Origin: a virus
Reading direction: 5' to 3' (one strand)
UHGV virus genome: UHGV-0274280
DNA: 15,876 nt
The notes beneath the pieces are model-generated. The model made no database searches. It was given only the letters and a program-made list of their open reading frames with translations, and was not told the DNA's origin. Shown here piece after piece: positions 1-15,876 of this stretch (the first letter of the stretch is position 1; each line of letters opens with the position of its first letter). The translations under genes and the position numbers were made by a program.

Positions 1-143
1 GTATATACAAACCCACAAACCAAATTTTCGTTCATAGCATATATTAAGTTTGTAAGATTGATTCCGTTATTTTCAATCGAACTGACGATTTTATGTTCAT
101 GCAAAGACATTTTATCAGATTTATTTTTAATTAAATTATTCAT
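1..143 (-). CDS. hypothetical protein, 5' part only (gene continues beyond window start)
   Basis: ATG at 143 with AAGGAG 6 nt upstream; frame stays open to the window edge (MNNLIKNKSDKMSLHEHKIVSSIENNGINLTNLIYAMNENLVCGFVY...). The ATG lies 8 nt inside the upstream recombinase gene, suggesting translational coupling. Not in the ORF track because under 60 aa within the window. AT-rich. Confidence 0.35.
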   Translation of the reverse strand, partial: MNNLIKNKSDKMSLHEHKIVSSIENNGINLTNLIYAMNENLVCGFVY

Positions 144-1338
144 CAAATTCTCCTTTGAATAGTTGCTCTTGTTGTTCAAGTGCAGTTTTTTTCGATAGCT
201 CATAAATATGCCTGCGATTATAAATCATTGAAGTTTCTGAACCCGGTCGCCATCCCATGAGATAAGAACGGATTTGTTGCTCTTTTTCATCGGATATGTC
301 CTGATTCTTGTCTATTGCTTTCGAAAACTCATAATTCCATGTATGTCTGAGTTTGTGACCTGTCAATCCCCCTAGAAGTGAGGAGGATTGACGAACAACA
401 CTCACCACTTTGTGATATGAAGAAAATGAAATAGGTTGCCCTTGAGTTTTTCCTTCCTTATAAGTAATAAACAGGAAATCATGTTTGTTAGAATTTTTTA
501 TGTTTCTTCGATCATTCAGAATATAATCTGAAATTTCAAACATGAGCTTTTTATCAGCAATTAATTTCCTCTCACAAGTTTTAACTAAAGGCTGATACAC
601 TCGCGGATCTGTTTTATCATTTGCTCTTCTTCTTATTGCAATTGTCGATTCTGCAAAATCTATATCACCCATTCGCAGATTCAAAAGTTCACCTGCTCTC
701 AGGCCAAAGCAGTGTAATAGCAGGAATATTAGATTGTTTCTTTTTTGCACTTTTTCTGAAAATGGATTTAATTTGCTACCCGGTGCAAGAATGCTAAACA
801 AAGAATCCAATTGTTCATTATTTAAACTTTTTTCTTTATCCATAGTATATTTATCATTATTTCTCGGTTTCTTTCGTTTTATGTTGTTAATGAAATCTAA
901 AATATATTTGAGAGTATCCTTCTGTCCTGTATGAGAAAGATGTATTTTGCACAGCCATTCCAGATAGTTAGCTATGGTTGTTATCCGAAAGTACTTAGTT
1001 GGTTTTTTGACATTTGAACTTCTAAAATTATCATTCTCGCCATCTCGAAAATTGAATGAAGTGAATTCGATCAAATCTTCAATTTCATGAGGAGCCAGAA
1101 ATATCCTTTTCTGAATTCTTTCATCAATATTGATATTTTTTCTCATAAAGAATCGATATAACAATGAAATGCTCCCAGCGATAACCTTCATTGTTGATAT
1201 AGACTCTGACCGATTCCTGACTTGTGTTGTTATATACAAGTTTGGATAATACAATGGCTCACCAGTATCTTTATTTACAACATGACAATATCTCTCACCA
1301 TTTTCGAACATAAAAGAATCCACACAAATACTGCACAT
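136..1338 (-). CDS. tyrosine-type site-specific recombinase / integrase-family protein (400 aa)
   Basis: Catalytic-domain signatures of the tyrosine recombinase family: box I-like LLLHCFGLRAGELLNLRMGDID (Arg), HKLRHTW (H-x-x-R), C-terminal SMIYNRRHIYE (candidate Tyr). ATG at 1338 with AGGAGG 5 nt upstream. Very AT-rich, unlike the other two integrases. Confidence 0.65.
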   Translation of the reverse strand: MCSICVDSFMFENGERYCHVVNKDTGEPLYYPNLYITTQVRNRSESISTMKVIAGSISLLYRFFMRKNINIDERIQKRIFLAPHEIEDLIEFTSFNFRDGENDNFRSSNVKKPTKYFRITTIANYLEWLCKIHLSHTGQKDTLKYILDFINNIKRKKPRNNDKYTMDKEKSLNNEQLDSLFSILAPGSKLNPFSEKVQKRNNLIFLLLHCFGLRAGELLNLRMGDIDFAESTIAIRRRANDKTDPRVYQPLVKTCERKLIADKKLMFEISDYILNDRRNIKNSNKHDFLFITYKEGKTQGQPISFSSYHKVVSVVRQSSSLLGGLTGHKLRHTWNYEFSKAIDKNQDISDEKEQQIRSYLMGWRPGSETSMIYNRRHIYELSKKTALEQQEQLFKGEFDE

Positions 1339-1955: not shown

Positions 1956-2171
1956 CTAAGCAACATTATTTCGACTTGTTTCGATAACAGACTGAATCCA
2001 GGCATCAATCTCACTTTCGACGAAAGCTACTGCACGAGTTCCAATTTTGACAGGGGCAGGAAACTTACCATCTTTGATCAGACGATAGACCCAGGCTTTG
2101 CCGAAACCAGTTCGTTTCAAGACTTCGGGTAAACGAATTAAGCTTTGATTGGTTGTATCGGTTGTATTCAT
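1956..2171 (-). CDS. alpA: AlpA-family phage transcriptional regulator / excisionase-like HTH protein (71 aa)
   Basis: LIRLPEVLKRTGFGKAWVYRLIKDGKFPAPVKIGTRAVAFVESEIDAWI follows the AlpA pattern (RLPEV..TG.....Y......FP.P.K.G.R.....E...W). Strong RBS GGAGGAGG 7 nt upstream of the ATG at 2171. Confidence 0.75.
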   Translation of the reverse strand: MNTTDTTNQSLIRLPEVLKRTGFGKAWVYRLIKDGKFPAPVKIGTRAVAFVESEIDAWIQSVIETSRNNVA

Positions 2172-2337: not shown

Positions 2338-3147
2338 CTAGAAAGATCCGAGTTCCGAAATCGGTATGTTGCGGAGATGGCTGTTTTTGCTGATAAAATA
2401 TTCCAGACTACGGGTTGTTTCGCCATTCAATGACTTCTCTGCAACAGGCCTATCTGTATCTTTAATGTGATCTTCTCCTCTGATCTCATTTGTAAAGTCG
2501 GGATACAAGACACGAGACAAGACCATATTTGAGATTTTTACTTTTTTAAACTTTGCCCAAATCAATAAATCCATCATTGGGATAATATTGTAATCGACAA
2601 GTTTTCTTATTTTTGCAAGTCCAATTTTTTCTGTTTTCACTGGCTCAATTTCATATTCTTTTCTAAGATCTGGTAGCATCGTTTGTAAGGCTGTTATAAT
2701 TTCTTCATCGCTGGACATTCCTAAATCAAATGAAACATACATCTTGCTGCTATTTTGGTTTAGAAAAAAGTCCCTCATAGTTTTTGTAATTGGTTTCTTT
2801 TTCAACTCTTTTTTGAAATCGCCATTTTCTTCAAAAAAATCCATGCTAAACATTATTAACTTGTTCTCTAATTTTTTTATATCACCAAAGCTAACTTGCG
2901 CAACATGCCTTTGGCCCTTGCCAAAATGACCATGATTATTATCTTGTCTGCTTAAAATAGGATTACCTTCAAGGATAGACCTTAAATTTTGATTATCATC
3001 TTCCCATCCAAAATTTACACTGTCGAAAATCGCTTCTCTAAAGGCAAGCTCAGTATGCAGTTCTTTGATTGTAAGTGATTTTAACTGCTCATAGTTTTCG
3101 AGACTAAACCAGCTTTTTAATTCTTCATAAGGGCTTACTACTTTCAT
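2338..3147 (-). CDS. hypothetical protein, orphan cargo gene (269 aa from first ATG at 3147; 276 aa if the TTG at 3168 is used)
   Basis: Long ORF in AT-rich DNA between the P4-type integrase and alpA; GGAGG about 5 nt upstream of the ATG at 3147. No family recognised by eye. Confidence 0.5.
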   Translation of the reverse strand: MKVVSPYEELKSWFSLENYEQLKSLTIKELHTELAFREAIFDSVNFGWEDDNQNLRSILEGNPILSRQDNNHGHFGKGQRHVAQVSFGDIKKLENKLIMFSMDFFEENGDFKKELKKKPITKTMRDFFLNQNSSKMYVSFDLGMSSDEEIITALQTMLPDLRKEYEIEPVKTEKIGLAKIRKLVDYNIIPMMDLLIWAKFKKVKISNMVLSRVLYPDFTNEIRGEDHIKDTDRPVAEKSLNGETTRSLEYFISKNSHLRNIPISELGSF

Positions 3148-3204
3148 TAATCCCTCCACTGTATTCAAAGCTTGAATGAGTTAACACTGCTTATTTGAAT
3201 TAAT

Positions 3205-3258: not shown

Positions 3259-4509
3259 TTAACTCTTTTTAAAATCAAATGGTGAAACTTGTCGTATTCT
3301 AAGGAGGTCAAGGTAATCGGCCCACCACTGCAACATAAGCTTTCTCTCATCAAGGTGCTCTGCTTTATGTATGTACGCAGCACGAACTGAGTTCCGCTCC
3401 TGATGGCTCATTTGCCGTTCAACAGCATCTTTCGACCACAAACCGGATTCAATTAAAGCACTACAAGCCATAGCTCTGAATCCATGTCCACAGACCTCCA
3501 CGGTTGTGTCATAGCCCATAGACCTCAAAGCCTTGTTTACCGTATTTTCACTCATGGGCTTTCTGAAATCATGGTCGCCAATGAACACGAGTTCATGGTC
3601 ACCGCTGATCTCTTTAATTTCCGTCAACACAGCCAATGCCTGACAACTCAAAGGAACAAGGTGTGGAGTTCGCATTTTCGAACCACGATGCGAATGTTTC
3701 ACTCCGGGTAATGGCTCTCGCTCTGCAGGAATAGTCCACATGGCATTGTCGAAATCTATCTCTGACCAACGAGCAAACCTGAGTTCACTCGAACGAATAA
3801 AAATGAGCAATGTAAGCTTTACGGCTAACTTCGTGAGCTTTCTACCTTTGAATATTTCAATTCGCTCTAGGAGTTCAGAGAAGCGATCAAACGGTAATGC
3901 CGGTCGGTGGGTTCTTTTTGCTACAGCAATAGCCCCAGACATTTCTTGGGCCGGATTATAGTCAATTAAGCCATTCTGGACGGCATATCGCAAAATTGCT
4001 GTGGTTCGTTGTTGTAGACGGGCTGCTACTTCTAACCGTCCAGAAGCTTCAACAACCTTGATCGGAACGAGTAGATCCTTGGTTTTAAGCTCGGCTATTT
4101 TTCTCTTTCCTATGAAAGAGAAAAGGTTATCTTCAAGGCTCTTTAAAACCCTCTCACTATGGGAATCTGACCATTTCCTTTTACAGGCAGTATGCCAGTC
4201 CCTTGCAACAGCTTCGAATGTCAGGGCTTCGCTTTGCTCGATTTTGTCTGCTTTTTTCTTTTCTGAGGGGTCGAGACCAAGCGATACTAATTTTTTGGCT
4301 TCATCCCGTTTCTTGCGGGCTTCACTAAGAGAGACCATTGGATAAACACCCAATGCTAAAACTTTCTGTTTGCCATCGAAACGGTATTGGAGTCGCCAGT
4401 ACTTCGAGCCGTTAGGATTGATCAGCAGGTGCATACCCTGCCCATCGGTGAGTTTGAAGGGTTTGTCGGAGGGCTTGGTAGTCCTAACTTTGATATCGGT
4501 GAGAGCCAT
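3259..4509 (-). CDS. int: P4 / CP4-57-type tyrosine integrase (416 aa)
   Basis: N-terminal arm-binding region (KPSDKPFKLTDGQGMHLLINPNGSKYWRLQYRFDGKQKVLALGVYPMVSLSEARKKRDEAKKLVSLGLDP) typical of P4-like integrases; catalytic region with HGFRAMACSAL and ...RAAYIH. ATG at 4509 with GGAGG 9 nt upstream. Confidence 0.85.
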   Translation of the reverse strand: MALTDIKVRTTKPSDKPFKLTDGQGMHLLINPNGSKYWRLQYRFDGKQKVLALGVYPMVSLSEARKKRDEAKKLVSLGLDPSEKKKADKIEQSEALTFEAVARDWHTACKRKWSDSHSERVLKSLEDNLFSFIGKRKIAELKTKDLLVPIKVVEASGRLEVAARLQQRTTAILRYAVQNGLIDYNPAQEMSGAIAVAKRTHRPALPFDRFSELLERIEIFKGRKLTKLAVKLTLLIFIRSSELRFARWSEIDFDNAMWTIPAEREPLPGVKHSHRGSKMRTPHLVPLSCQALAVLTEIKEISGDHELVFIGDHDFRKPMSENTVNKALRSMGYDTTVEVCGHGFRAMACSALIESGLWSKDAVERQMSHQERNSVRAAYIHKAEHLDERKLMLQWWADYLDLLRIRQVSPFDFKKS

Positions 4510-4601
4510 CAGTTGATACCTCCAGTGTTGGTACCAAAATCAATCGAACCGGGAATACCATCAGTTATACCATCATCAGTTGGTATATGTTCAAGGAATT
4601 G

Positions 4602-4681
4602 AGTAGACGTAGACAGACTAAGAAAAGCCAGAAACCTGCTTAACTTACTGTTTTTATGGACTAAAGTAGACGTTAGTAGAC
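4602..4681 (+). repeat. direct repeats AGTAGACGT (4602-4610, 4665-4673) and AGTAGAC (4675-4681); putative arm-type integrase binding sites
   Basis: Three copies of the 7-mer core, two spaced 10 bp apart, between the integrase start and the tRNA-end fragment, where att arm sites are expected. Confidence 0.4.
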
Positions 4682-4698: not shown

Positions 4699-4729
4699 TG
4701 GTGCCGAAGGCCGGACTCGAACCGGCACG
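4699..4729 (-). other. 31-nt tRNA 3'-end fragment (T-arm, acceptor 3' strand, CCA); leuX / tRNA-Leu-like; putative att core or direct repeat
   Basis: Reverse complement reads CGTGCCGGTTCGAGTCCGGCCTTCGGCACCA: T-stem GCCGG/CCGGC, T-loop TTCGAGT, CCA end. It matches my recollection of the last 31 nt of E. coli leuX. The upstream sequence does not supply the complementary acceptor 5' strand (GCCGAAG), so this is not a complete tRNA gene. Confidence 0.6.
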
Positions 4730-4862
4730 GGTTTAGGCGGCTTAGCTTGCTTCAATAATCATCGTTAACTCGTTGAACTAGCTAGAATAAAGCTCATAAC
4801 CCCGGCACATTTCACAGACTGTTTAGCCATGAAAAAGCCCCGACAACATAACCGGGGTTTGT

Positions 4863-6071
4863 ATGAGTTTCAAGAGAGATCGTTATCTAGTTTTAGATCC
4901 CTGCGGGAATTACCTCGTGCGGATAGCTATCCCCAGCTATATGCGTCACCTGTTCCAAGGGAAACGCTACTTTATGAAAAGCACAGGGACACGAGACATA
5001 CGGCAAGCGCGATTGTTTCGCGATGCTATTGCTCTGGAATGGACTCGCTTACGGAATCTGCTAAAGCCACAAGGCGGCTCATCTGTAGACCAAATCATTG
5101 ATGAGCTACGCCGTGTCAGTGTGTACGCCAAGGAAGCCCCCGCATCGTTTGGTGCATCGATTCAGGCTTGCCCTTCCTTGCTAAAAATGCGTGATTTGTA
5201 CCTGCTTCAATACAGCGAGAAGCGAAAGCTAACCACGCTATCCAAGACCAATAAAGCCGTAGAGGTGCTGTTAACCCACCTGAAAAAGAAAGATGTTCAG
5301 TTGCGAGATATTAACCGAACCATAGTTACAGGCTGGTTAGATAAACTCAAAACTGAGCGAGCGCCCCAAACCATCCAGAACTATATCAGTGCACTGGCGC
5401 AGATATGGGATTTGGCACGCAATCGCTATCACGATGCGCCACAGGATAACCCTTGGCGTGGTCATGCACTCGAAGCAAAAAGCAGCAAGGTCAGCTATGA
5501 AGTCTTCGCACCGGGAGAGCTGGCAAAGGTCTATACCTTGCTTGATGACGAGATGAAGGCGGTAACGGCTATTGGTGCTTACAGCGGTATGCGGATCAAT
5601 GAAATATGTACGCTGCGTGAGAGCAGTATTAAAACCATCGAGGGCGTTTTGTGCTTTGAGATCACCGAGGGGAAGACCAAGAGCGCGGCACGAATCGTCC
5701 CAGTACACAGCAAGCTAATCCCCCTCGTGAAATCATTGCTCAAAACCACACATAGCGGTTTTCTGTTCTATCACGCGTCAATTACAGACCGGGCGGATGG
5801 GAAGCGCTCAACGTGGCATACGCAGCAGTTCACACGGGCAAAGCGTAAAGCTCTTGGCGAACTTGCCGCAGAGAGAAAAGTGTTTCACTCACTCCGCCAT
5901 GCGTTTGTGCAACAACTCGACCGTGCTCAAGTGCCAGAAGATAGGATCGCTCTGCTTGTAGGCCACGAACGAGGTAGCACTGAGAGTTTTAAGACATATT
6001 CAAAAAACGCAGCATCCCCTTTAGAGATGCGCCGGTATATTGAATTAATAGATTATGAATTAATTAAATGA
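4863..6071 (+). CDS. int: tyrosine-type phage integrase (402 aa), different family from the P4-type one
   Basis: N-terminal YLVRIAIPSYMRHLFQGKRYFMKSTGTRDIRQARL pattern common to phage/island integrases; C-terminal HSLRHAF (H-x-x-R) and LLVGHERGSTESFKTYSK (candidate Tyr). Transcribed away from the tRNA fragment. Confidence 0.8.
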   Translation: MSFKRDRYLVLDPCGNYLVRIAIPSYMRHLFQGKRYFMKSTGTRDIRQARLFRDAIALEWTRLRNLLKPQGGSSVDQIIDELRRVSVYAKEAPASFGASIQACPSLLKMRDLYLLQYSEKRKLTTLSKTNKAVEVLLTHLKKKDVQLRDINRTIVTGWLDKLKTERAPQTIQNYISALAQIWDLARNRYHDAPQDNPWRGHALEAKSSKVSYEVFAPGELAKVYTLLDDEMKAVTAIGAYSGMRINEICTLRESSIKTIEGVLCFEITEGKTKSAARIVPVHSKLIPLVKSLLKTTHSGFLFYHASITDRADGKRSTWHTQQFTRAKRKALGELAAERKVFHSLRHAFVQQLDRAQVPEDRIALLVGHERGSTESFKTYSKNAASPLEMRRYIELIDYELIK

Positions 6072-6084
6072 AATGCTTAGAGAA

Positions 6085-6106
6085 GAAGCCGAATAATATC
6101 GGCTTC
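6085..6106 (-). terminator. putative intrinsic terminator hairpin (GAAGCCGA-ATAATA-TCGGCTTC) between the convergent integrase and 157-aa genes
   Basis: 8-bp GC-rich stem with 6-nt loop directly after the stop of the minus-strand 157-aa gene and 14 nt after the integrase stop; U-rich stretch follows on the minus-strand transcript. Confidence 0.4.
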
Positions 6107-6580
6107 CTATGCAGCCGCTTCTGTTATACGTTCTCGATATTGTTTAGCTTCATCTATCCACATTTGTATTGCTTCTTGATTGTCCCAATTTGCATGGGCA
6201 TCATGATCAATAAAATCAACAATATAGTAGTGCCTTGTACCTGAGAATACAAAATACGAATATATCAAATAGCTGTTACTTTTACATTTCCATTGTACCA
6301 GTGGATGCCCATTGTCATCCTCCCAGACACTGTCTTCCTGCCTCACATGTAGATGTGTTAAACCTTCTCTTTTCTGATGATACGGCTTATCTTCATCAAC
6401 ATTGTCCCTATCTCTGCCAAAGAGCAGCGAAATAGATGCAAAAAGTTTTTGGATGGAATATCGGGGGCGGGAATGCTCTGCACTTAGTTGCTTATAGCGA
6501 CAGAACTCCTGATAAAAAGGAAGAAACTCGCCATCATTGGCGAGTTTTTCACAGCAATCAAACTCAATTGCAAGCGGCAT
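6107..6580 (-). CDS. hypothetical protein (157 aa), AT-rich moron gene
   Basis: ORF whose ATG at 6580 lies inside the 3' end of the upstream small ORF; AT-rich relative to the flanking operon; no family recognised. Confidence 0.5.
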   Translation of the reverse strand: MPLAIEFDCCEKLANDGEFLPFYQEFCRYKQLSAEHSRPRYSIQKLFASISLLFGRDRDNVDEDKPYHQKREGLTHLHVRQEDSVWEDDNGHPLVQWKCKSNSYLIYSYFVFSGTRHYYIVDFIDHDAHANWDNQEAIQMWIDEAKQYRERITEAAA

Positions 6581-6719
6581 GTACTTTACTGTATTCAGCT
6601 AAACGCTCATCAGTTTCTCTGGAACTTTTACGCGCTACAGTACGCGTTGTCTTGATAAGAGCATTCAGAGCATCCCTACTCATACCAGTCGATACGGGGC
6701 TGATTTTCGCCTTTGTCAT
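6564..6719 (-). CDS. hypothetical small protein (51 aa; start chosen at ATG 6719)
   Basis: ATG at 6719 with AGGAGG 7 nt upstream (aacAGGAGGtacaatATG); its 3' end overlaps the start of the 157-aa gene by 17 nt. The ORF track extends it to 6758 without RBS support. Confidence 0.4.
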   Translation of the reverse strand: MTKAKISPVSTGMSRDALNALIKTTRTVARKSSRETDERLAEYSKVHAACN

Positions 6720-6780
6720 ATTGTACCTCCTGTTTTTCGGTGATTGGCCTGCACACATTGTAGGCAGTTATTTTAAGTGG

Positions 6781-6809
6781 AGATTACGCAATCTACATCA
6801 ATCCGTCAA
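6781..6809 (-). promoter_or_regulatory. candidate sigma70-like promoter for the 51-aa/157-aa pair (-35 TTGACG, 17-bp spacer, -10 TAATCT)
   Basis: Hexamers read on the minus strand about 60 nt upstream of the ATG at 6719; the -10 matches consensus at only 3 of 6 positions. Confidence 0.25.
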
Positions 6810-6896
6810 GAATTGTTTTAAATACGAGCAAGTAAATAGGCAGCCACAGCAACATGTAACCTCATGAAAATAAAATAAATAGAGCCATGACCAATG

Positions 6897-7325
6897 TTAT
6901 GCTGGATAAATAATACCCAGCCCCTTGTAGTGGCGGCGGTAGGCTGGTAGCATGAAATTCATGCTACCGGGTGAGAGTCCACACACCCGCCCTACATAAT
7001 AGCCACCCTCAGCAGCATTAGCAGAGCGATGCACCACAGCACGCACGCGCCCGGTTCGGTGGCAGTGATCCAGCACGGCAGACGCAAGGCGCAGCGGCTT
7101 ACCTGTCACCGCACAGCGTCGGTATTGATAATTCCACAGGAAGACACGGACAGCGGCCACATCAGCGCGGCGCAACTCCAGCCGCCCGGAACCATTCAAC
7201 AGGAAGCGATAAACATCTTCGAATGCAGCAGCGTTTGTAATCCGTTCCGCCAGTGGCATATTGCCAAGGTGTTCCAGATAGCCCCGCATAGCTTTTCTTA
7301 ATAGCTGGTCTGTCCGTGTAACCAT
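6897..7325 (-). CDS. endonuclease VII-like (T4 gp49-type Holliday-junction resolvase family) protein, divergent (142 aa)
   Basis: CAVTGKPL...LDHCHRTGRVRAVVHRSANAAEG resembles the Endo VII core (C..C...LDHDH..G.VRGLLC..CN.AEG) but the second Cys pair is replaced by His/Ala. Confidence 0.55.
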   Translation of the reverse strand: MVTRTDQLLRKAMRGYLEHLGNMPLAERITNAAAFEDVYRFLLNGSGRLELRRADVAAVRVFLWNYQYRRCAVTGKPLRLASAVLDHCHRTGRVRAVVHRSANAAEGGYYVGRVCGLSPGSMNFMLPAYRRHYKGLGIIYPA

Positions 7326-7597
7326 GATTCAAAGTCTCCATTGTCAGATGAAGCCCGCTTGCAGGCTTCATATTCTTCGCACTGGCGCTGGCGTACCAAA
7401 GCATAAAGCTCATCGGCCAACGCATTAACGCGTTCGTCACTGATACCATTGCGGCGCATTAGCCCCAGCAGCTTACGAAACTCAGCTTCAAGCTCAGGCT
7501 CTCCGGTATCTATTACCCACTGTTTCAGGTAAGCAAGTGTGCCAGTCATTGGCGGCGGCTCGATGTACCGCCACCTTAATTTAATTGTGGTTATCAT
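7298..7597 (-). CDS. hypothetical protein (99 aa from ATG at 7597)
   Basis: ATG at 7597 with GAGAGGA about 9 nt upstream; overlaps the neighbouring genes at both ends. The ORF track's longer start at 7645 lacks an RBS. Confidence 0.4.
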   Translation of the reverse strand: MITTIKLRWRYIEPPPMTGTLAYLKQWVIDTGEPELEAEFRKLLGLMRRNGISDERVNALADELYALVRQRQCEEYEACKRASSDNGDFESWLHGQTSY

Positions 7598-8006
7598 CTT
7601 CTTTATCCTCTCTGTAAGCCGGGTGCATTGCCCGGTATTGCTCAATGGTCAAACCCTCGCTGGCCGCTGTAAGCCGTTCCTTTTGCTTACCTGCCAATCG
7701 CAAGGCGCTATCTCTCCAGCAAAGCAGAAAGAAGACGGTCAGCACCTGCTTACTCAAGCCATCCAGAAGATCGCCAAGCCCTTGATCCAGCAGACAGACA
7801 CGCCATGCAGCGGCGTGCTCAGTCATAGCACCGACTATCGGGACAGGTGCGCCAAGCATCGTCGCAAGCTGACTCATAACACTATTAGCATCGCCCGGAT
7901 GCAGCCGGGGAATAGACATGCGGCCAGCCTGCGCCAACAGTTCAGCGTACCGCTGGCGGCGTGGGTCATCATCTGCCAGCGCTCTAATCGGCTTTTCATC
8001 AGCCAT
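7581..8006 (-). CDS. hypothetical protein (141 aa)
   Basis: ATG at 8006 with GGAGG 9 nt upstream, 18 nt after the HNH gene stop; no motif recognised. Confidence 0.5.
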   Translation of the reverse strand: MADEKPIRALADDDPRRQRYAELLAQAGRMSIPRLHPGDANSVMSQLATMLGAPVPIVGAMTEHAAAWRVCLLDQGLGDLLDGLSKQVLTVFFLLCWRDSALRLAGKQKERLTAASEGLTIEQYRAMHPAYREDKEDDNHN

Positions 8007-8024
8007 TAATGGAACCTCCGAGGA

Positions 8025-8534
8025 TTAGGCAGCCTGCAATAAATCGGCTGGCGTTGAGGGATGGCATCTGGCTTTAGCTTTTAGATAGGCAGCACGCGCC
8101 GCCACTTCGGTAGTAAATAAGCCAAGGTGACGGAGTACACCATCAACGCGTATGTAAGCCTCCCATTTTCTACAGCCCTTATTCCAGCTATACCCCCTTG
8201 CCTTGCGTCGGTTCTGGTCGTTTTCCCGCTGCGTAACCAAGCGCAGATTGCATAGGCGATTGTCGTCACGGATACCGTTGATGTGATCGATCTGCTTACC
8301 ATGAGGAATAGCGCCATGCGCAAGAATCCACGCCACGCGATGGGCTTTTAGCTGGTACTGCTTGCCATCAAGTCGCAGGGCAACTTGACGATAGCCATCA
8401 GCTCGCCGGGTGGAGTCAGCATAGGAGCCAGCCTTAACCCGGCGTCGGTTAGCTTTATGGTGCAGGCGGCCTGTCACCGGGTCATACAGGAAAAGGGAAC
8501 ACAGCAGCTCAGGGGCGTAAGCATCATTAACCAT
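8025..8534 (-). CDS. HNH endonuclease with AP2-like DNA-binding domain (169 aa)
   Basis: HRVAWILAHGAIPHGKQIDHINGIRDDNRLCNLRLVTQRENDQN is a typical HNH_3-type motif, followed by GYSWNKGCRKWEAYIRVDGVLRHLGLFTTEVAARAAY (AP2-like). GGAGG 9 nt upstream of the ATG. Confidence 0.75.
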   Translation of the reverse strand: MVNDAYAPELLCSLFLYDPVTGRLHHKANRRRVKAGSYADSTRRADGYRQVALRLDGKQYQLKAHRVAWILAHGAIPHGKQIDHINGIRDDNRLCNLRLVTQRENDQNRRKARGYSWNKGCRKWEAYIRVDGVLRHLGLFTTEVAARAAYLKAKARCHPSTPADLLQAA

Positions 8535-8550
8535 GACTCAGCCCCTCCAG

Positions 8551-9546
8551 TTATGCAGCTTGTCGGAAATTGATAACGCAGTCAGGACGACGCAGCCCAA
8601 CGTTGAACAGGCGATATGAGTCCATCACCATTGTCATTTCGCGTTCATCATCCCACTGGCGATTGATGACGCTCTGCGCTTCGACCGTCAGCAGCACAGA
8701 GGAAGGTTTAAACAGCGTCGCCCTCGTCATCGCTTCCTCTGCGGTAACGTCATAATCAGCGCCCAGTTCATGCCCGGTAATGACTTCCTGCGGGTAACTG
8801 TTCAGCTCAATGACTCGCACCCCAGCGACATAGCCAACGCGACGCCATGCGTAATCGTTGCCACTATCCCGGCTGTAACGGACGTTCATCAGCTTCTTAT
8901 GTTCCATCAGGATGCTGAACCATGCAGGGTCAATGAGAAGCACCAGCTCGGCCACCGGAATATCTTTCTCAGTGAGGAAGCGATTAGCAGCCGCTTTGAC
9001 GGCGTGAACCAATTCGTTTGCGGCGTCCTCTTCGCTCCCCGCTGTCAGGTCGAGCGAGACAACGTTATTCGTAAGCGGGTTAAACGTTGGTTGCAGTGTC
9101 GGCGGCGGTACAAAGTCAGTCGCTTTGATTAACTGGATGGTGTGCGCTTCGTCGTAGAACTTAGCGTGCGCAGTGCCGATATTGCGGCTCAGCTCTGCGC
9201 GAAATGTGGGTGCTGTCCAATCGTCCTGATAGTCAATCGGGACGCGGATATAACTCAGCGTATCCACAGAGATAACCAACTTGTCCGACTTAACGGCGGT
9301 AGGCTCCAGCGATTGCCCTGCGGTTCTGCCCTTCACCTCAAGATCACCACTCAGGCGATCAATGCGGTATTGGTTGCTGCCTTTCAGCGGCCTGTATGTA
9401 GACAGCCCCTCGGCCAGAAATACGGATTTGGACTCTAAACGGGTCTGGACATCCCGGTCATAAGCCTCGATGTGAATATCATTGTCGGATTCCACCCCGC
9501 CATAATGTGGGCGAAACAGATCGGGACTGTACGAAGTATCAGCCAT
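8551..9546 (-). CDS. major capsid protein homolog, T7 gp10-like (331 aa from ATG at 9546)
   Basis: By-eye block alignment to T7 gp10A from memory: KLVISVDTLSYIRVPIDYQDD...RAELSRNIGTAHAKFYDEA vs KVITIDGLLTADVLIYDIED...RSEYTSQLGESLAMAADGA, and FLTEKDIPVAELVLLIDPAWFSIL vs LTKNYVPAADRVFYCDPDSYSAIL. Similar length (T7 gp10A is 345 aa). AGGAG 8 nt upstream of ATG 9546; the ORF track start at 9591 has no RBS. Confidence 0.6.
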   Translation of the reverse strand: MADTSYSPDLFRPHYGGVESDNDIHIEAYDRDVQTRLESKSVFLAEGLSTYRPLKGSNQYRIDRLSGDLEVKGRTAGQSLEPTAVKSDKLVISVDTLSYIRVPIDYQDDWTAPTFRAELSRNIGTAHAKFYDEAHTIQLIKATDFVPPPTLQPTFNPLTNNVVSLDLTAGSEEDAANELVHAVKAAANRFLTEKDIPVAELVLLIDPAWFSILMEHKKLMNVRYSRDSGNDYAWRRVGYVAGVRVIELNSYPQEVITGHELGADYDVTAEEAMTRATLFKPSSVLLTVEAQSVINRQWDDEREMTMVMDSYRLFNVGLRRPDCVINFRQAA

Positions 9547-9744
9547 AAACAAAACTCCTACGTAGGTTGATGAAGCCCGCGCCATCGTCATGGCACAGAC
9601 GTGCGGAATCCTCCCGCCGAGGCAGGATTCAGAACGGTATCGATTAAAGGGATGAGGTGCCCCGAAATGGGCGTTTTGAGGCCAGAGCTGGCGCGGTTCT
9701 CAGGGGTTAGTGCGCGTGAAGTAAGGCGAACGTATTACCTTGCA

Positions 9745-10158
9745 TTAGTGCGCACTCATACGCGCCATGTTCAACACCTTCCGCACAGAGGTTTCAGACA
9801 CGCCAACCTTGCTTGCAATGTAACGATTCTTCTGGCCTTTTGCAGAGCGAACGATAATGTCAGCGCGTATCGCCTCAGTGATTACCTTGCGGGGTCTGGC
9901 TCGATTCTTCTCGTGCCGTTCACGTTCGCGCATCCGCTCGGCCATCTTCGGCGGCAGCACAGGGGAAAGCCCACGGCTAACGCCAGATGTGCGGGTGCCG
10001 GATGTGGCAGACCGTGCAACGATATAAACCGCTTCGTCTGGATTGAAAACGTGCGGCACACGCTCAGGGTAAACATGATCACATCTACCCAGCGGCAAGG
10101 CGAAATCCGGGCGCACGTCAGCGACACGCTCCACAGCATGGAAATTACAGGTACTCAT
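9745..10158 (-). CDS. HTH DNA-binding protein (137 aa); possible small terminase subunit or regulator
   Basis: C-terminal helix-turn-helix-like segment RYIASKVGVSETSVRKVL preceded by a basic stretch; GAGG 6 nt upstream of the ATG. Function not assignable from sequence alone. Confidence 0.45.
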   Translation of the reverse strand: MSTCNFHAVERVADVRPDFALPLGRCDHVYPERVPHVFNPDEAVYIVARSATSGTRTSGVSRGLSPVLPPKMAERMRERERHEKNRARPRKVITEAIRADIIVRSAKGQKNRYIASKVGVSETSVRKVLNMARMSAH

Positions 10159-10297
10159 TACGAACCTCGGTTAATTAAAAACAGGCTTTCAGATGCCGCG
10201 CAGAATGCGGCTTGCGGGGACTCATGCGCATAGATTGGTGTGGTAGTACCGGGTCGGTGCGCACTCGGTCTTGCAGGGCGCATTCCACAGTTGGGCG

Positions 10298-10978
10298 TTA
10301 GCGACCAGCACGTTTGCCAGCGGAGCGCTGCGCAACCAGAGCGCGGTATTGTTCATCGTACTGGCGATGGCCGGGGCCATACCCTGATTGCTGCGCCCAC
10401 TGCGAAAGCTGGTCATACGCTGCTATAAACTCAGCATGTGACATTCCGACAGGTTGCGCGGCAGTCTGGCCGTTCGGGACGTAACCGGTAATGGAACCGC
10501 CAGCCATACGCTCTTGCAGATACTGAACCGCACGCGACATCTGCGCGGGATCGCCAGACATGACCATCCGTTCAAGGGTTGATTGCGTCCCGGCGTCGAG
10601 CGTGCCAGCGTACTGCAACATCGCGTCAACTGTACCCTGACCTAGCTGGCTTTCGACAGACTGGTGAAACTGCCCCATCAGCCCATGAAGTTCAGGAGTC
10701 AACTCAACAGTGGTGCCATCCTGTAATTGCAGTGTGTCGCCCACTTGCGCCCCAGCGCTGTCAGCGTTCTGGTCTTGCTGATTTGCGATATTGCCATTAT
10801 TCCATTGTCCGCCATCATTGCCGTTAACGGGTTGGGTACGGAGGAAATCAGCATCAGCAGGCGCAGAGCTAAAGCGGGATGCTCCATTGTCAACTCCAAC
10901 AGGTGCAGCCATGTATGGCGATTGCTGCGATGCAGCATCAGCACCGGAAAGGTACGGATTAACATTCTGGTCAGACAT
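10298..10978 (-). CDS. acidic Q/N/G-rich low-complexity protein (226 aa); possible scaffolding or other assembly protein
   Basis: AGGAGA 7 nt upstream of the ATG; sits two genes upstream of the capsid gene. Composition is rich in Q, N, G, D and A. Confidence 0.45.
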   Translation of the reverse strand: MSDQNVNPYLSGADAASQQSPYMAAPVGVDNGASRFSSAPADADFLRTQPVNGNDGGQWNNGNIANQQDQNADSAGAQVGDTLQLQDGTTVELTPELHGLMGQFHQSVESQLGQGTVDAMLQYAGTLDAGTQSTLERMVMSGDPAQMSRAVQYLQERMAGGSITGYVPNGQTAAQPVGMSHAEFIAAYDQLSQWAQQSGYGPGHRQYDEQYRALVAQRSAGKRAGR

Positions 10979-10981
10979 AAA

Positions 10982-11221
10982 TTACTCTCCTGATAATGCT
11001 CTAAAGTCGTGTACCTGCGCTAACAACAGCATATGAACAGGCACACAACGTTCCGGCAGTTTGCGCACACCGTGATACGCTTTACCCATATCCCGACGAT
11101 CAACCTGATAGGCGTGGGCGAGGTCTGCCTGACTCACCTCAAGCGATTCAGAAATCAGCTTTAATTGTGCAGCCCAGTCTGTATTCTTGCGGGGCGGCAG
11201 CAATACGATAGTTTTGCTCAT
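10982..11221 (-). CDS. hypothetical protein (79 aa)
   Basis: ATG with GAGGA 6 nt upstream; its stop is 4 nt before the next gene's ATG. Confidence 0.4.
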   Translation of the reverse strand: MSKTIVLLPPRKNTDWAAQLKLISESLEVSQADLAHAYQVDRRDMGKAYHGVRKLPERCVPVHMLLLAQVHDFRALSGE

Positions 11222-11233
11222 GGTAATTCCTCG

Positions 11234-11470
11234 TTAAAGTAATCCACGTTTACGAAGCCAACGACGCTCACCAACGGAGCCGCGCGGGCGTTGTTTCGGA
11301 TTCTGGTTAAGTGTTTGGCTGGGGTCAGTTCGACCTTTCCCGGTCAGGTTCTGCGTCAGCACATCCCAACCCCGTGATTCAATCGGAGCGTATCCTTCGC
11401 GTTGTTCGTCAAGGTTCACGTAGAGATCAGGGTTAACGGCGGGGTGCAGCGGTTCGTTCTCTGCCATCAT
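11234..11470 (-). CDS. hypothetical protein (78 aa)
   Basis: Start ATG overlaps the stop of the upstream gene (ATGA), indicating translational coupling. Confidence 0.4.
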   Translation of the reverse strand: MMAENEPLHPAVNPDLYVNLDEQREGYAPIESRGWDVLTQNLTGKGRTDPSQTLNQNPKQRPRGSVGERRWLRKRGLL

Positions 11471-12030
11471 TCAGCCTCGCTGAATTTGGAGTTAACAGAC
11501 TCCAGAGTATCCGGGTACGACCAACGATTTCTCAGGCAGCGTTGCACATGCGCGACGACCTCAACAGGGACGCCCAGCTTCCCGGCGATCTCCGCAGCAG
11601 GCCAACCGAAGCGCTCTAACTTGTGGATTTCATCTAAATCAGTAGGCACTAACTTGCGCACTACTTTCGGCTTCGCTGGCTTCACCTTCAAGGGTTTCTG
11701 TACCGGGTGCGTGTGGGCGTTGCTAAAGCGGGAATGGGCGATAGCCAGCACCGTCTCAGGGCGAATCAGCATATCGCGGGCAATCATAAACTCTGTATCG
11801 CGGTGCAGCTTGCCGGGCTTATAGCGGCTGCGGATGGCGTTGTACTCCGCCAGATTAATATCAGCATCGTCTTTCCAATGTTCGGCCAAGTCATCGACAT
11901 AGGCGCCACGGATTACTGCATCAATATCGGTCAGGGTATGACCTGTCTCCGCTGCAATCTCTTCATTGTTCTTTAGGTGCTTATGAGCCAGCGCGTTAAT
12001 GCGCTGGATATCGGTAATACTCAAAGTCAT
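11467..12030 (-). CDS. putative DNA-binding protein (187 aa) with C-terminal sigma-70 region-4-like HTH
   Basis: DLDEIHKLERFGWPAAEIAGKLGVPVEVVAHVQRCL resembles a region-4/LuxR-type HTH; GGAG 9 nt upstream; ATGA overlap with the upstream ORF. Confidence 0.5.
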   Translation of the reverse strand: MTLSITDIQRINALAHKHLKNNEEIAAETGHTLTDIDAVIRGAYVDDLAEHWKDDADINLAEYNAIRSRYKPGKLHRDTEFMIARDMLIRPETVLAIAHSRFSNAHTHPVQKPLKVKPAKPKVVRKLVPTDLDEIHKLERFGWPAAEIAGKLGVPVEVVAHVQRCLRNRWSYPDTLESVNSKFSEAE

Positions 12031-12203
12031 AAATTAAACTCCGAATCAAATTTGATCTGGTCAGTAACCAACGTGTGAATCAGCGCAAGGCTTGACGCGG
12101 TGTGTGTGCCCGACTTGCGGGCGTTGTCGTACATGAAGCGGACTACACGTTGATATTTCTCCGGCAGCGTGGCGAACCATTGCCGGAACTGTTCAGGGGT
12201 CAT
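12027..12203 (-). CDS. hypothetical small protein (58 aa), absent from the ORF track
   Basis: MTPEQFRQWFATLPEKYQRVVRFMYDNARKSGTHTASSLALIHTLVTDQIKFDSEFNL; its start overlaps the upstream stop (caATGAcc) and its stop overlaps the downstream start (ttATGAct), closing an apparent 170-bp gap in the operon. Confidence 0.35.
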   Translation of the reverse strand: MTPEQFRQWFATLPEKYQRVVRFMYDNARKSGTHTASSLALIHTLVTDQIKFDSEFNL

Positions 12204-12409
12204 TGGTCGTCATCCTCCGGGAACACGTTGTTAAAGGTTGTATCAGGCGAGTCGGCGGCGTTCTGCTTGAGGAAGTTCACGCAGGATGACAACTCGGCAG
12301 CAGCCATGCGTGACTCTCCCGCCTCGTCCTCCTTAAGCCTGCGCGTCAACGCACCCAGCAGCAGGGTTTTTAGTTCCCATGCTCCGGCTTCAAATTCAGA
12401 TTTCGTCAT
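12200..12409 (-). CDS. hypothetical protein (69 aa)
   Basis: ATGA overlap with the upstream 145-aa gene; acidic C-terminus. Confidence 0.4.
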   Translation of the reverse strand: MTKSEFEAGAWELKTLLLGALTRRLKEDEAGESRMAAAELSSCVNFLKQNAADSPDTTFNNVFPEDDDQ

Positions 12410-12843
12410 TGGTGGTTATCTCCAACTGGTAACAGGCCTAGCGCACGGATGTGCTGAATCACTTCTTGATGCACGGGCTTCGGCAGAAACAAACGGCGGG
12501 CAATGGCGGCGTAAACTTCATCAGGAGTCTTGCGTACCGGATGCACCCGGCCATTGAAAACCCGGTCGGACAACCGGACGGCTTTCCAGCGACGCGAGCC
12601 ATCCGGCCTTTTCATGCGGTTCAGTACAGCGGCCAGACACTCCCACGGCTCGCAATCATTCAGCAGGCAATATCGCTCCAGCGGTGTAAATACCTCGCGA
12701 ATGATGGCCTCACGATTAAGGGTCTTGCGATGAGGTTCGGCCAGTTCATCCCAGTTGTACCCATTCAGGGCGAAAGCTAGTTGTGCGGTGATGAGCGCAT
12801 CCGCACGCGCAGCACGACGCTGCGCATGTTCGGTAACAGGCAT
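12406..12843 (-). CDS. hypothetical protein (145 aa)
   Basis: ATG at 12843 with GGAG 8 nt upstream, 37 nt after the helicase stop; no motif recognised. Confidence 0.5.
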   Translation of the reverse strand: MPVTEHAQRRAARADALITAQLAFALNGYNWDELAEPHRKTLNREAIIREVFTPLERYCLLNDCEPWECLAAVLNRMKRPDGSRRWKAVRLSDRVFNGRVHPVRKTPDEVYAAIARRLFLPKPVHQEVIQHIRALGLLPVGDNHQ

Positions 12844-12880
12844 ATGATTAACTCCAGAGAATCAGGGAGAGCCTTTCGAC

Positions 12881-14725: not shown

Positions 14726-15114
14726 GGTGAAATCTCCAGAAAATAGGGGTAGGTATTAGCTCAGGTTGGGGCGGTGGTACAGGTGCGGCAGACTCTCTGC
14801 CCTTATAGAGGTTTTCATGTCGGCAACAGTGTCAGTGTCTTTATCTGCCTTAATAGTCACTTTCAAAATCGGAGAGTTTGTCGCGCTTCGGGAGTTATTC
14901 TTTCTCCTTAGTAGATACCTTCATTAGGTCAATTTTTAACCACAACCTCGCTAAGCCTTACTGAGCCTGGGCTGGCAATACTTAACAGCGCGATTTTTGT
15001 CGGTCAAAAGCGGGAAAGTAATGCTCTATATCTCCTTATTAGTAGCCTTTAAAATTAAAAATATAAGTTACTGATATCAATAGATAATTATGAAAGTGTC
15101 TATAGTGATATAGT

Positions 15115-15600
15115 ATCGCTAGATACGCAGAGCGAGCGCGGCGCAGCCGAAACAAGCGAGCGCCGAACTGATGACGGATGGCAGACCGTAGGACTGACAG
15201 ACGGCAGACAGTGAAGGCAGTAGGACAGGTGACAGACAGTAACCGTGACGGCGTGCCATAGCTGGCAGTAGCACAGCAGGCAGTAAGACCAATGACCGAC
15301 GGCTAAGACCTGAAAGGAAACGAAAAAGAAAGATGATTGAACGATACAGAAATGAATGAAGATGTTTTGAAGAATACCTACCGATAACAGTATATGATTG
15401 ATTAAATTAACAATACCGATAAAGAGTACCGTTCCACTACACATCCCCGCCGCGTTGCCTGCCACGGCAAGCACGGTTGCGTAGAGTCGCCGAGCATCAG
15501 CAGCGGGCGAAGACCGGGAATGAGCCAAAGGCGATGGAGCGGGCTGGAGCATAGCGAGAAGCGCAGCAAGTGAAGAGAGCGAAGCACTCGTAACTACATT
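15115..15600. repeat. T-depleted, purine-rich non-coding region with short degenerate repeats (GGCAG x5, GGCAGTA x3, GACAG x5, AGCGAGCGC x2, GCGAAG x3)
   Basis: About 10% T in sampled 60-nt lines between 15121 and 15300. GGCAG starts at 15180, 15203, 15216, 15264, 15279; GACAG at 15196, 15207, 15224, 15231, 15235. No ORF of 60 aa or more on the plus strand. Confidence 0.5.
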
Positions 15601-15876
15601 TAGGAGAAGGGATGTAAGGGAAGAACCCTTTCCTGTACATGTATTTCAAATGCAACTTTAAAGATACTACTAACGTGTTGACCAGCTTCAAATCTAGCTT
15701 AGTGATTGGACAACGCAGCCTTTGATCCCTTCCCCTGCCCCATCCCTCGAATTGTTCAGTGATAACTCACATTCACAATCTGATCTCGATGTTCATCGTC
15801 TGGCACGGCTAAAGCCCCGCCACCTCTTCACATCGAGAGCCGCAAGTAACACGAAAATACATTATAAATCATATCG

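What the first reader, a model, noticed from the sequence alone, without database searches (positions are those of the whole stretch)
4602..4681. AGTAGAC(GT) direct repeats between integrase and att core
Three copies, two of them 10 bp apart (one helical turn), lie 18-97 bp from the tRNA fragment and upstream of the P4-type integrase start. This is the position and architecture expected of arm-type integrase binding sites, which may also autoregulate int.
Basis: seen in the sequence. Interest (0 to 1): 0.4.

Follow-up and report, generated by a model that had tools for sequence, protein, structure and literature searches.

The report
Excisionase sites, not integrase arm sites
The AGTAGAC repeats are real and conserved, but they are most likely docking sites for the island's small excision helper protein (AlpA/Vis type); the integrase's own arm sites are a different repeat, ATACCATCA, right beside them, so this is an ordinary P4-type attachment site.

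Summary
AGTAGAC occurs exactly three times in the 15.9-kb window (4602, 4665, 4675), all between the P4-type int start (4509) and a 31-nt leuX tRNA-Leu 3' fragment (4699-4729).

With weaker conserved half-sites, the copies form two blocks of direct repeats spaced 10 bp apart:
- Box I, 4602-4618, two sites next to the int -35.
- Box II, 4655-4681, three sites next to the core.

The arm-site interpretation fails three tests.
1. The repeats that align with P4's annotated "attP arm sequence repeats" are the tandem ATACCATCA copies at 4555-4575, not AGTAGAC.
2. In two complete E. coli copies of the island, ATACCATCA pairs lie on both arms.
3. Viral-contig relatives with a P4-like Int N-domain and P4-like arm repeats still carry GTCTACT boxes. 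Their AlpA is 61-63% identical to the window's.

So the arm repeats track Int and the boxes track the excision factor. The layout matches KplE1 (five TorI sites in two blocks) and P4 Vis. No binding experiment was possible. This is a new member of a known kind and of low interest.

The parts
4699..4729 (-). 3' fragment (31 nt) of a leuX-type tRNA-Leu. It is the att core shared by island A (to the left) and a second element B (to the right).
   Evidence: Identical to the 3' end of the intact tRNA-Leu next to the same int in E. coli 602354; identity ends after 4729. ARAGORN finds no complete tRNA in the window.
4655..4681 (.). Box II: three direct repeats spaced 10 bp apart (TATGGAC 4655-4661, AGTAGAC 4665-4671, AGTAGAC 4675-4681). 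In the int direction they read GTCTACT-N3-GTCTACT-N3-GTCCATA. Inferred binding sites for the excision factor (RDF).
   Evidence: The only GAC-N7-GAC-N7-GAC in the window. Conserved across the group-1 loci. Aligns with P4's core-proximal phased TCC block at 4047-4069.
4641..4653 (-). Weak IHF-like match (AAACAGTAAGTTA, 2 mismatches to WATCAANNNNTTR) between the two boxes.
   Evidence: It aligns with P4 AATCAATGCTTGC. P4's int regulatory region is reported to hold a high-affinity IHF site (PMC7286903). Inference only.
4602..4618 (.). Box I: two direct repeats spaced 10 bp apart (AGTAGAC 4602-4608 and ACAGAC 4613-4618), plus a CGTAGAC at 4608-4614 found only in the window and L010. It lies 8 bp upstream of the predicted int -35. 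Inferred RDF binding sites.
   Evidence: Aligns with P4's phased TCC run at 3974-4006.
4589..4594 (-). Predicted -35 (TTGAAC) of the int promoter.
   Evidence: Aligns with the -35 annotated in P4 record X05947. Prediction only; the consensus scanner did not call it.
4564..4569 (-). Predicted -10 (TATAAC, preceded by TGg, so extended -10). It is formed at the junction of the two tandem arm repeats.
   Evidence: Same placement as the -10 annotated in P4. Prediction only.
4555..4575 (.). Tandem ATACCATCA repeats (4555-4563 and 4567-4575, 12-bp period). These are the likely Int arm-type sites.
   Evidence: They align column for column with P4's annotated 'attP arm sequence repeat' pair. The same tandem lies on the far arm of two complete island copies. 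The motif changes together with the Int N-domain across groups.
4578..4586 (.). Inverted arm-like copy (AGTTGGTAT; ATACCAACT on the - strand).
   Evidence: Conserved in group 1.
4526..4534 (.). Inverted arm-like copy (TGTTGGTAC; GTACCAACA on the - strand) just upstream of the ribosome-binding site. It corresponds to the inverted arm repeat at the P4 int start.
   Evidence: This inverted copy changes together with the tandem copies in every group: TACCAACA, TACCCACA, GTGCCCCCA.
3259..4509 (-). P4-type tyrosine integrase (416 aa) of island A. Ribosome-binding site GGAGG at 4519-4523.
   Evidence: Pfam Arm-DNA-bind_3, Phage_int_M and Phage_integrase. 59% identical to P4 Int.
1956..2171 (-). AlpA/Vis-family small winged-helix protein (71 aa). 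It is the inferred excision factor (RDF) that binds Boxes I and II.
   Evidence: Pfam Phage_AlpA 2e-19 and HTH_17. 37% identical to P4 ORF88/Vis, E 3e-17. Weak matches to solved structures TorI 1Z4H and an AlpA-family protein 8C3T. A homologue is present in every group-1 locus whose held DNA reaches far enough; only L021, whose contig ends about 0.6 kb past int, lacks one.

Best explanation
The AGTAGAC repeats (GTCTACT when read in the int direction) are most likely the binding sites of the island's own recombination directionality factor (RDF), the 71-aa AlpA/Vis-family protein encoded at 1956-2171.

Proposed mechanism (inferred):
- AlpA monomers bind head-to-tail, one per helical turn, to Box II (three sites, 4655-4681, next to the core) and Box I (two sites, 4602-4618, just upstream of the int -35).
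- A host IHF bend probably lies between the two boxes.
- Together these bends fold the int-proximal arm so that Int can bridge its arm-type sites and the tRNA-Leu core. The arm-type sites are the ATACCATCA tandem at 4555-4575 plus the inverted copies at 4578-4586 and 4526-4534. This favours excision.
- Because Box I abuts the int promoter, AlpA binding should also change int transcription. The direction is not known.
- Int bound to its arm sites over the -10 would repress its own gene.

Shown: the motif, its phasing, its conservation, its restriction to one arm, its positional homology to P4, and its covariation with the RDF rather than with Int.

Inferred: actual binding, DNA bending, and the regulatory outcome.
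For: 1. Architecture. There are two blocks of direct repeats spaced 10 bp apart, found only here in the window. Spacing of one helical turn is the general signature of RDF sites (PMC7498355). KplE1 attL has five TorI sites in two blocks. The three-site block (I3-I5) includes the site nearest the intS -35, and the Int arm sites overlap the -10 (PMC2951348).

2. One arm only. In two complete copies, AGTAGAC is absent (one mismatch allowed) from 400 bp inside the far core, whereas ATACCATCA tandems are present on both arms.

3. P4 homology. P4 attP aligns colinearly with this region. P4's annotated arm repeats fall on ATACCATCA. P4's only TCC-N7-TCC-N7-TCC runs in 11.6 kb (3974-4006 and 4047-4069) fall on Box I and Box II. 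P4 Vis binds attP by EMSA and DNase I footprinting and represses Pint (PMC2603039; PMC7286903).

4. Double dissociation. Loci L092, L106 and L098 have an Int N-domain 70-81% identical to P4 (52-56% to the window) and GGGGCAT-type arm repeats. Their AlpA is 61-63% identical to the window's (38-40% to Vis), and their boxes read GTCTACT/GTCTATT/TCTACY.

5. The partner gene is always present. Every group-1 locus with these boxes whose held DNA reaches far enough encodes an AlpA homologue with a conserved helix-turn-helix. The one exception is L021, whose contig ends just past int. The neighbouring DUF6387 protein varies from 27% to 98% identity with unchanged boxes, and it is absent from L092, L093, L106 and L098.

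6. Not an RNA element. The transcript of the region folds no better than shuffles (z = 0.47), and no terminator is found.
Against: - No binding data exist for this AlpA or this DNA.
- The covariation rests on two lineages only (L092/L093/L106, and L098).
- No AlpA homologue could be found within 8 kb of int in the related group-2 and group-3 islands (GTCAAC-type boxes), so the test could not be repeated there.
- No GTCTACT box was found anywhere else in the island, for example at a second promoter, although P4 Vis also acts at other promoters.
- The exact coordinates of the P4 Vis footprints (Cali et al. 2004) could not be read. Their placement between int and the core is recalled from the abstract.
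- The int promoter is predicted by alignment to P4, not mapped.
Confidence: 0.75

Rival explanations
1. One reading: AGTAGAC repeats are arm-type sites bound by the N-terminal domain of the P4-type integrase, and they autoregulate int.
For: They lie in an att arm next to int, as direct repeats with helical spacing. Int has an arm-binding domain.
Against: - A different motif (ATACCATCA) occupies the positions of P4's annotated arm repeats, lies on both arms, and changes with the Int N-domain.
- AGTAGAC is missing from the far arm in 2 of 2 complete copies.
- GTCTACT boxes persist next to P4-like integrases that use GGGGCAT arms.
Confidence: 0.06
2. The repeats are sites for some other protein, either a host nucleoid or regulatory protein or another island protein (DUF6387, ORF109), rather than AlpA.
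For: Binding has not been tested. DUF6387 and the 109-aa ORF accompany int and alpA in most group-1 loci.
Against: - DUF6387 drops to 27-31% identity with unchanged boxes, and both it and ORF109 are absent from L092, L093, L106 and L098, which keep the boxes.
- A host factor would not explain why the motif differs between islands at the same leuX site in the same species: GTCTAC, GTCAAC and TCC types.
- AGTAGAC does not fit the IHF consensus.
Confidence: 0.13
3. The repeats have no protein-binding role. They are chance repeats, local duplications, or a remnant or substitute of the tRNA terminator that related islands carry at this position.
For: The count of AGTAGAC alone is not significant. 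Related islands have a hairpin plus T-run exactly where Box II lies. One extra GTAGAC copy (4609-4614) is found only in the window and L010.
Against: - The clustering and phasing statistics argue against chance.
- The sites are conserved while the spacer varies, across 22 distinct sequences from many genera.
- No hairpin or terminator is found.
- The same motif recurs beside unrelated arm repeats and a different tRNA target.
Confidence: 0.05

Closest known systems
Satellite phage P4 attP/int region (Int arm repeats; Vis excisionase)
   Same: - Same target, the leuX 3' end, and the same gene order.
- The 190-bp region aligns colinearly with P4 attP.
- In both, a tandem 12-bp-period arm pair forms the int -10, an inverted arm copy lies near the int start, and a second tandem pair lies about 53 bp beyond the core on the far arm.
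- In both, two blocks of repeats spaced 10 bp apart lie between the arm sites and the core.
- Int is 59% and the RDF 37% identical to the P4 proteins.
   Different: - The motifs differ: arms ATACCATCA versus ATGCCCCCA, and boxes GTCTAC versus TCC(G/A).
- The element here is a roughly 20-kb mobilisable island carrying defence cargo, not a phage satellite.
- No box-like copies were found at other promoters.
- The Vis footprint coordinates could not be checked directly.
KplE1 (CPS-53) prophage attL: IntS arm sites and TorI sites (Panis et al. 2010, PMC2951348)
   Same: - attL overlaps the int promoter next to a tRNA 3' end.
- There are five RDF sites in two blocks of 2 and 3, and the three-site block includes the site nearest the -35.
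- Arm-type sites overlap the -10.
- TorI core motifs (GTTCG, GATCG, GTCCG) resemble GTCTA and GTCCA.
- int is repressed by both Int and the RDF.
- TorI is the best solved-structure match to the window's AlpA.
   Different: - Different integrase lineage and a different target (argW).
- The two blocks are reversed. In KplE1 the three-site block includes the site nearest the int -35. Here the three-site Box II lies next to the core, and the two-site Box I abuts the -35.
- Regulation here is untested.
Lambda attP: Xis sites X1/X1.5/X2 versus Int arm sites P1, P2, P'1-3
   Same: Same logic (established knowledge): Int is bivalent and binds one arm motif on both arms, while the RDF binds closely spaced direct repeats on one arm only and bends the DNA.
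   Different: In lambda the Xis sites are on the arm away from int, and int is not transcribed from within attL. The proteins are only distantly related.
CP4-57 AlpA/IntA (the namesake of Pfam PF05930)
   Same: An AlpA-family protein paired with a P4-like integrase at a tRNA-like gene. AlpA controls excision (cited in PMC2603039).
   Different: From my own knowledge, CP4-57 AlpA is described as increasing intA expression, whereas Vis and TorI repress. The direction here is unknown. I did not examine the CP4-57 att region.

Membership tests
Arm-type binding sites of a heterobivalent (P4/lambda-type) tyrosine integrase | The same motif is present on both att arms (attL and attR, or P and P') | tested here: not met
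   AGTAGAC, even with one mismatch, is absent from 400 bp inside the far core in E. coli 602354 and 204446. ATACCATCA tandems are present there, 52-73 bp from the core.
Arm-type binding sites of a heterobivalent (P4/lambda-type) tyrosine integrase | Positional homology to the arm repeats of a characterised relative (P4) | tested here: not met
   P4's annotated 'attP arm sequence repeat' pair aligns with ATACCATCA at 4555-4575, not with AGTAGAC.
Arm-type binding sites of a heterobivalent (P4/lambda-type) tyrosine integrase | The motif covaries with the Int N-terminal arm-binding domain | tested here: not met
   L092, L106 and L098 have an Int N-domain 70-81% identical to P4 and GGGGCAT arm repeats, yet carry GTCTACT-type boxes.
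Arm-type binding sites of a heterobivalent (P4/lambda-type) tyrosine integrase | Bound by the Int N-terminal domain | not testable with these tools
   Needs EMSA or footprinting.
RDF (excisionase; AlpA/Vis/TorI winged-helix) binding sites | Two or more direct repeats spaced about one helical turn apart | tested here: met
   GAC at 4659-61, 4669-71 and 4679-81, and at 4606-08 and 4616-18. General rule from PMC7498355.
RDF (excisionase; AlpA/Vis/TorI winged-helix) binding sites | Confined to one att arm, between the core and the arm-type sites | tested here: met
RDF (excisionase; AlpA/Vis/TorI winged-helix) binding sites | A cognate RDF gene is present in the element | tested here: met
   AlpA-family ORF at 1956-2171. 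A homologue is present in every group-1 locus whose held DNA reaches far enough; L021, whose contig ends just past int, is the only one without.
RDF (excisionase; AlpA/Vis/TorI winged-helix) binding sites | The motif covaries with the RDF sequence independently of Int | tested here: met
   The window, L092, L106 and L098 share an AlpA type (51-82% mutual identity) and the (G)TCTAY box core (GTCTACT/GTCTATT; TCTACY in L098). P4 Vis (32-40% identical) goes with TCC boxes. Only two independent lineages.
RDF (excisionase; AlpA/Vis/TorI winged-helix) binding sites | The RDF binds and bends the DNA and is needed for excision | not testable with these tools
   Needs EMSA or footprinting and excision assays.
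Intrinsic terminator of the tRNA gene | G+C-rich hairpin followed by a T-run | tested here: not met
   No terminator is called downstream of the tRNA end, and the fold is no better than shuffles at z = 0.47. Related islands do have one at this position.
IHF site | Match to WATCAANNNNTTR | tested here: not met
   AGTAGAC copies do not match. A weak match lies between the boxes at 4641-4653.

The most novel reading that the evidence does not exclude
Within this roughly 190-bp attL, the two site families appear to be inherited as separate modules. The RDF gene and its boxes have apparently been swapped between distinct P4-family integrase/arm-site lineages and tRNA targets (window versus L092 and L098), with breakpoints inside the att arm, even though the RDF gene lies kilobases away. 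In addition, this island subgroup has phased RDF boxes where its relatives carry the hairpin terminator for leuX. Read-through from the strong tRNA promoter into int, gated by RDF or Int bound as roadblocks, is therefore not excluded.
Probability: 0.2. Interest if true: 0.45.

Novelty: new member of a known kind. Interest (0 to 1): 0.25.

Why it matters
The finding mainly corrects an annotation. In P4-family islands, the repeats nearest the core are probably excisionase sites. The integrase arm sites are the 12-bp-period tandem that forms the int -10.

This gives a usable rule for marking Int and RDF sites in leuX-type islands, which here carry anti-phage defence cargo. It also gives concrete mutations for testing how excision of such islands is switched on.

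It does not reveal a new mechanism. The layout is the one already established for KplE1 and P4.

Tried and rejected
- **RDF covariation in related groups.** I looked for an AlpA/Vis homologue in the group-2 (K-12 intB type) and group-3 islands, to repeat the test with their GTCAAC boxes. None lies within 8 kb of int, apart from tandem P4-like elements upstream.
- **Covariation inside group 1.** The AlpA helix-turn-helix and the box core are both nearly invariant, so this was uninformative.
- **P4 Vis targets.** I asked whether P4's box motif also marks the Vis-regulated PLL and Psid promoters. GTTGTCCG-like words are there, but GTCCG occurs 29 times in P4, so this is not evidence.
- **Primary papers.** Cali 2004 and Piazzolla 2006 are not held. 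The Shewanella CP4So, EcCIMP1 and ICEKp1 papers give no AlpA or Xis site sequences.
- **Other viral loci.** L109-L115 have AlpA plus DUF6387 but no P4-type int in the held DNA, so they were not usable. L096 has int and alpA divergent, with unclear boxes.
- **Other roles.** A second copy of the boxes elsewhere in the island (none), an RNA structure or terminator, IHF identity for AGTAGAC, and DUF6387 or ORF109 as the binder were all rejected.

Full report
**1. What is in the sequence**

The finding lies in the 189-bp gap between a P4-type integrase gene and a tRNA fragment.
- The integrase gene runs 3259-4509 on the minus strand. It has Pfam Arm-DNA-bind_3, Phage_int_M and Phage_integrase domains and is 59% identical to P4 Int.
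- The tRNA piece is the last 31 nt of a leuX-type tRNA-Leu (4699-4729, minus strand). ARAGORN finds no whole tRNA in the window.
- In E. coli 602354 the same int (98.8% DNA identity) sits beside an intact leuX next to ahr and yjgR. Identity to the window stops inside the tRNA.
- To the right of 4729 the window carries a second element, B. It has a different integrase, a YafO-like toxin, endonuclease VII, an HNH nuclease, a major head protein and a helicase.
- The fragment is therefore the junction of two elements inserted in tandem at leuX. The repeats belong to the left-hand island, A.

**2. Check of the observation**

- AGTAGAC occurs three times, at 4602, 4665 and 4675, all on the + strand, and nowhere else in the 15.9 kb.
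- The count alone is not significant. The clustering and phasing are:
  - A 7-mer present three times within 82 bp is expected 0.17 times per window.
  - AGAC-N6-AGAC occurs only twice, both here (P = 0.017).
  - GAC-N7-GAC-N7-GAC occurs once, here (0.09 expected).
- Read in the int direction the motif is GTCTACT. With weaker but conserved half-sites, it forms two blocks of direct repeats spaced 10 bp apart:
  - Box II: GTCTACT-N3-GTCTACT-N3-GTCCATA (4681-4655), next to the core.
  - Box I: GTCTGT-N4-GTCTACT (4618-4602), 8 bp upstream of a TTGAAC that aligns with the P4 int -35.
- Across 22 distinct homologous regions from Citrobacter, Erwinia, Xenorhabdus, Pantoea, Kosakonia and others, the box positions are nearly invariant while the spacer between them varies freely.

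**3.

- Immediately int-side of Box I lie two tandem ATACCATCA copies (4555-4563 and 4567-4575, 12-bp period).
- Inverted copies lie at 4578-4586 and 4526-4534.
- The P4 GenBank records annotate six 'attP arm sequence repeats'. Four of them form two tandem pairs with 12-bp period, one pair on each side of the core.
- P4 attP aligns colinearly with the window. The P4 int-side pair falls exactly on the ATACCATCA pair. The junction of the pair forms the annotated P4 -10, and TATAAC with an upstream TGg in the window.

**4. Test at the other end of the element**

I examined two complete copies of island A in E. coli, which carry different cargo.

| Copy | Far-arm core | ATACCATCA tandem | AGTAGAC (1 mismatch allowed) or phased GAC within 400 bp |
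|---|---|---|---|
| 602354 (about 19 kb; Kiwa, an HsdM-family methyltransferase, a relaxase) | degenerate leuX core | 53-73 bp from the core | none |
| 204446 | degenerate leuX core | 52-73 bp from the core | none |

- This spacing matches P4's far-arm pair at 54-77 bp from the core.
- The phased GTCT-N6-GTCT pattern occurs nowhere else in the island.
ATACCATCA passes.

**5. Which protein goes with which motif**

Among 80 related loci the arm motif changes together with the Int group. Its inverted copy near the int start changes with it.

| Group | Tandem arm motif | Inverted copy |
|---|---|---|
| Group 1 | TGATGGTAT | TACCAACA |
| Group 3 | TGCGGGTAC | TACCCACA |
| P4 | TGGGGGCAT | GTGCCCCCA |

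The decisive cases came from viral contigs found with the window's AlpA protein.

| Element | Int N-domain identity to P4 / to window | Arm motif | RDF identity to window AlpA / to P4 Vis | Box motif |
|---|---|---|---|---|
| L092, L106, L098 | 70-81% / 52-56% | GGGGCAT, 12-bp tandem plus inverted copy at the ATG | 61-63% / 38-40% | GTCTACT-N3-GTCTATT, GTCTACT-N3-GTAAACT, or four phased TCTAC(C/T) |
| P4 | 100% / 51% | TGGGGGCAT | 32% / 100% | phased TCC |

- L093 carries the same arm repeats and boxes as L092 but was not in the identity matrix.
- These elements use another tRNA target.
- P4's phased TCC boxes are distinctive. TCC-N7-TCC-N7-TCC occurs only three times in its 11.6-kb genome, all between int and the core, at positions that align with Boxes I and II.
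- The arm repeats therefore follow the Int N-domain, and the boxes follow the RDF.

Other candidate binders fit less well.
- DUF6387, encoded between int and alpA, falls to 27-31% identity with unchanged boxes.
- Both DUF6387 and the 109-aa ORF are absent from L092, L093, L106 and L098.
- The region has no RNA structure or terminator.

**6. Mechanism**

The window's 71-aa ORF (1956-2171) is Pfam Phage_AlpA/HTH_17. It is 37% identical to P4 ORF88/Vis, which RefSeq names 'excisionase and transcriptional regulator'. Its best solved-structure matches are TorI and an AlpA-family protein.

Published work sets the frame:
- RDF sites are direct repeats one helical turn apart, bound cooperatively, with DNA bending (PMC7498355).
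- P4 Vis binds attP by EMSA and footprinting (PMC2603039).
- Both Int and Vis repress Pint, and an IHF site is present (PMC7286903).
- KplE1 attL has five TorI sites in two blocks. The three-site block includes the site nearest the -35, and the arm sites overlap the -10 (PMC2951348).
- From my memory of the abstract of Cali et al. 2004, which the library does not hold, Vis protects two boxes between int and the attP core.

The best explanation is therefore this.
- AlpA binds Boxes I and II and, probably together with IHF at about 4641-4653, bends the int-proximal arm.
- That lets Int bridge the ATACCATCA arm sites and the core, which favours excision.
- AlpA binding also modulates the int promoter.
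- Int bound over the -10 would repress its own gene.
- Binding, bending and the direction of regulation are inferred, not shown.

**7. Comparison with known systems and novelty**

- This is the P4/KplE1 type of attL in which the int promoter is embedded in the recombination site.
- It is a new member of that kind, with its own motifs: arm ATACCATCA and box GTCTAC.
The protein assignment was wrong.
- The only mildly unusual points are the apparent modular exchange of RDF plus boxes between Int lineages, and the absence in this subgroup of the leuX terminator hairpin that related islands carry at the Box II position.

**8. Limits**

- There are no binding data.
- The covariation rests on two lineages.
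- The RDFs of the GTCAAC-box islands were not found.
- The promoter is predicted from P4 alignment only.

Noticed in passing
window 4730-15876: A second mobile element (B) is inserted in the same leuX site, in tandem with island A. It encodes a DUF6538-type tyrosine integrase (4863-6071, +), a YafO-like toxin, endonuclease VII, an HNH nuclease, a major head protein (8551-9591) and a helicase (12881-14725). The gene set looks like a capsid-encoding phage satellite. The same element lies next to a different leuX island in E. coli LR-33 (93% identity). Its far end and the intact tRNA lie outside the window.
   Followed up: partly
window 15216-15285: GGCAGTA occurs three times in the same orientation within about 70 bp (15216-15279) inside element B. 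This was one of only three such 7-mer clusters in the window.
   Followed up: no
L004 29409-29455; L090 26001-26040: The far-arm core of island A carries a tandem expansion of an 8-bp piece of the tRNA core: GGTGCGAA x4 in E. coli 602354 and x3 in 204446. It also lacks one C relative to leuX. The copy number differs between strains.
   Followed up: no
L006 (K-12), L002, and many of L031-L088, 10-45 bp after the tRNA-Leu end: Most related leuX islands, including K-12 KpLE2, carry a clean hairpin plus T-run (for example AGACCTCAACTGAGGTCTTTTTTT) immediately after the tRNA. The island therefore supplies the tRNA's terminator. The window's subgroup has no hairpin there and has the phased GTCTACT boxes instead.
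   Followed up: partly
window 2338-3168 (-): The DUF6387 gene between int and alpA is hypervariable among otherwise conserved islands (27-98% identity, with int at 88-97%). In some copies extra cargo, such as a cytosine methyltransferase, is inserted beside it. This suggests a diversifying slot, possibly defence-related.
   Followed up: partly
window 136-1338 (-) and leftward; L001 1-4149: Island A carries a tyrosine recombinase (400 aa), followed in the complete copies by a second recombinase and a large 'DNA-binding protein'. This is a multi-recombinase module separate from the P4-type int.
   Followed up: no
L004 29300-29408; L090 26041-26120: Outside the far core of island A lies the remnant of another island's int-side arm, with its own 10-bp-phased repeats (GTAAGTTGAT GTAGGTTGAC TTAGGTTGAG; CGTTGATGTCTATTGATGT). 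This indicates repeated, stacked insertions at leuX.
   Followed up: no
window 4838-4857: A terminator-like hairpin (CCCCGGTTATGTTGTCGGGG plus a T-run on the minus strand) lies between the tRNA fragment and the element-B integrase start.
   Followed up: no
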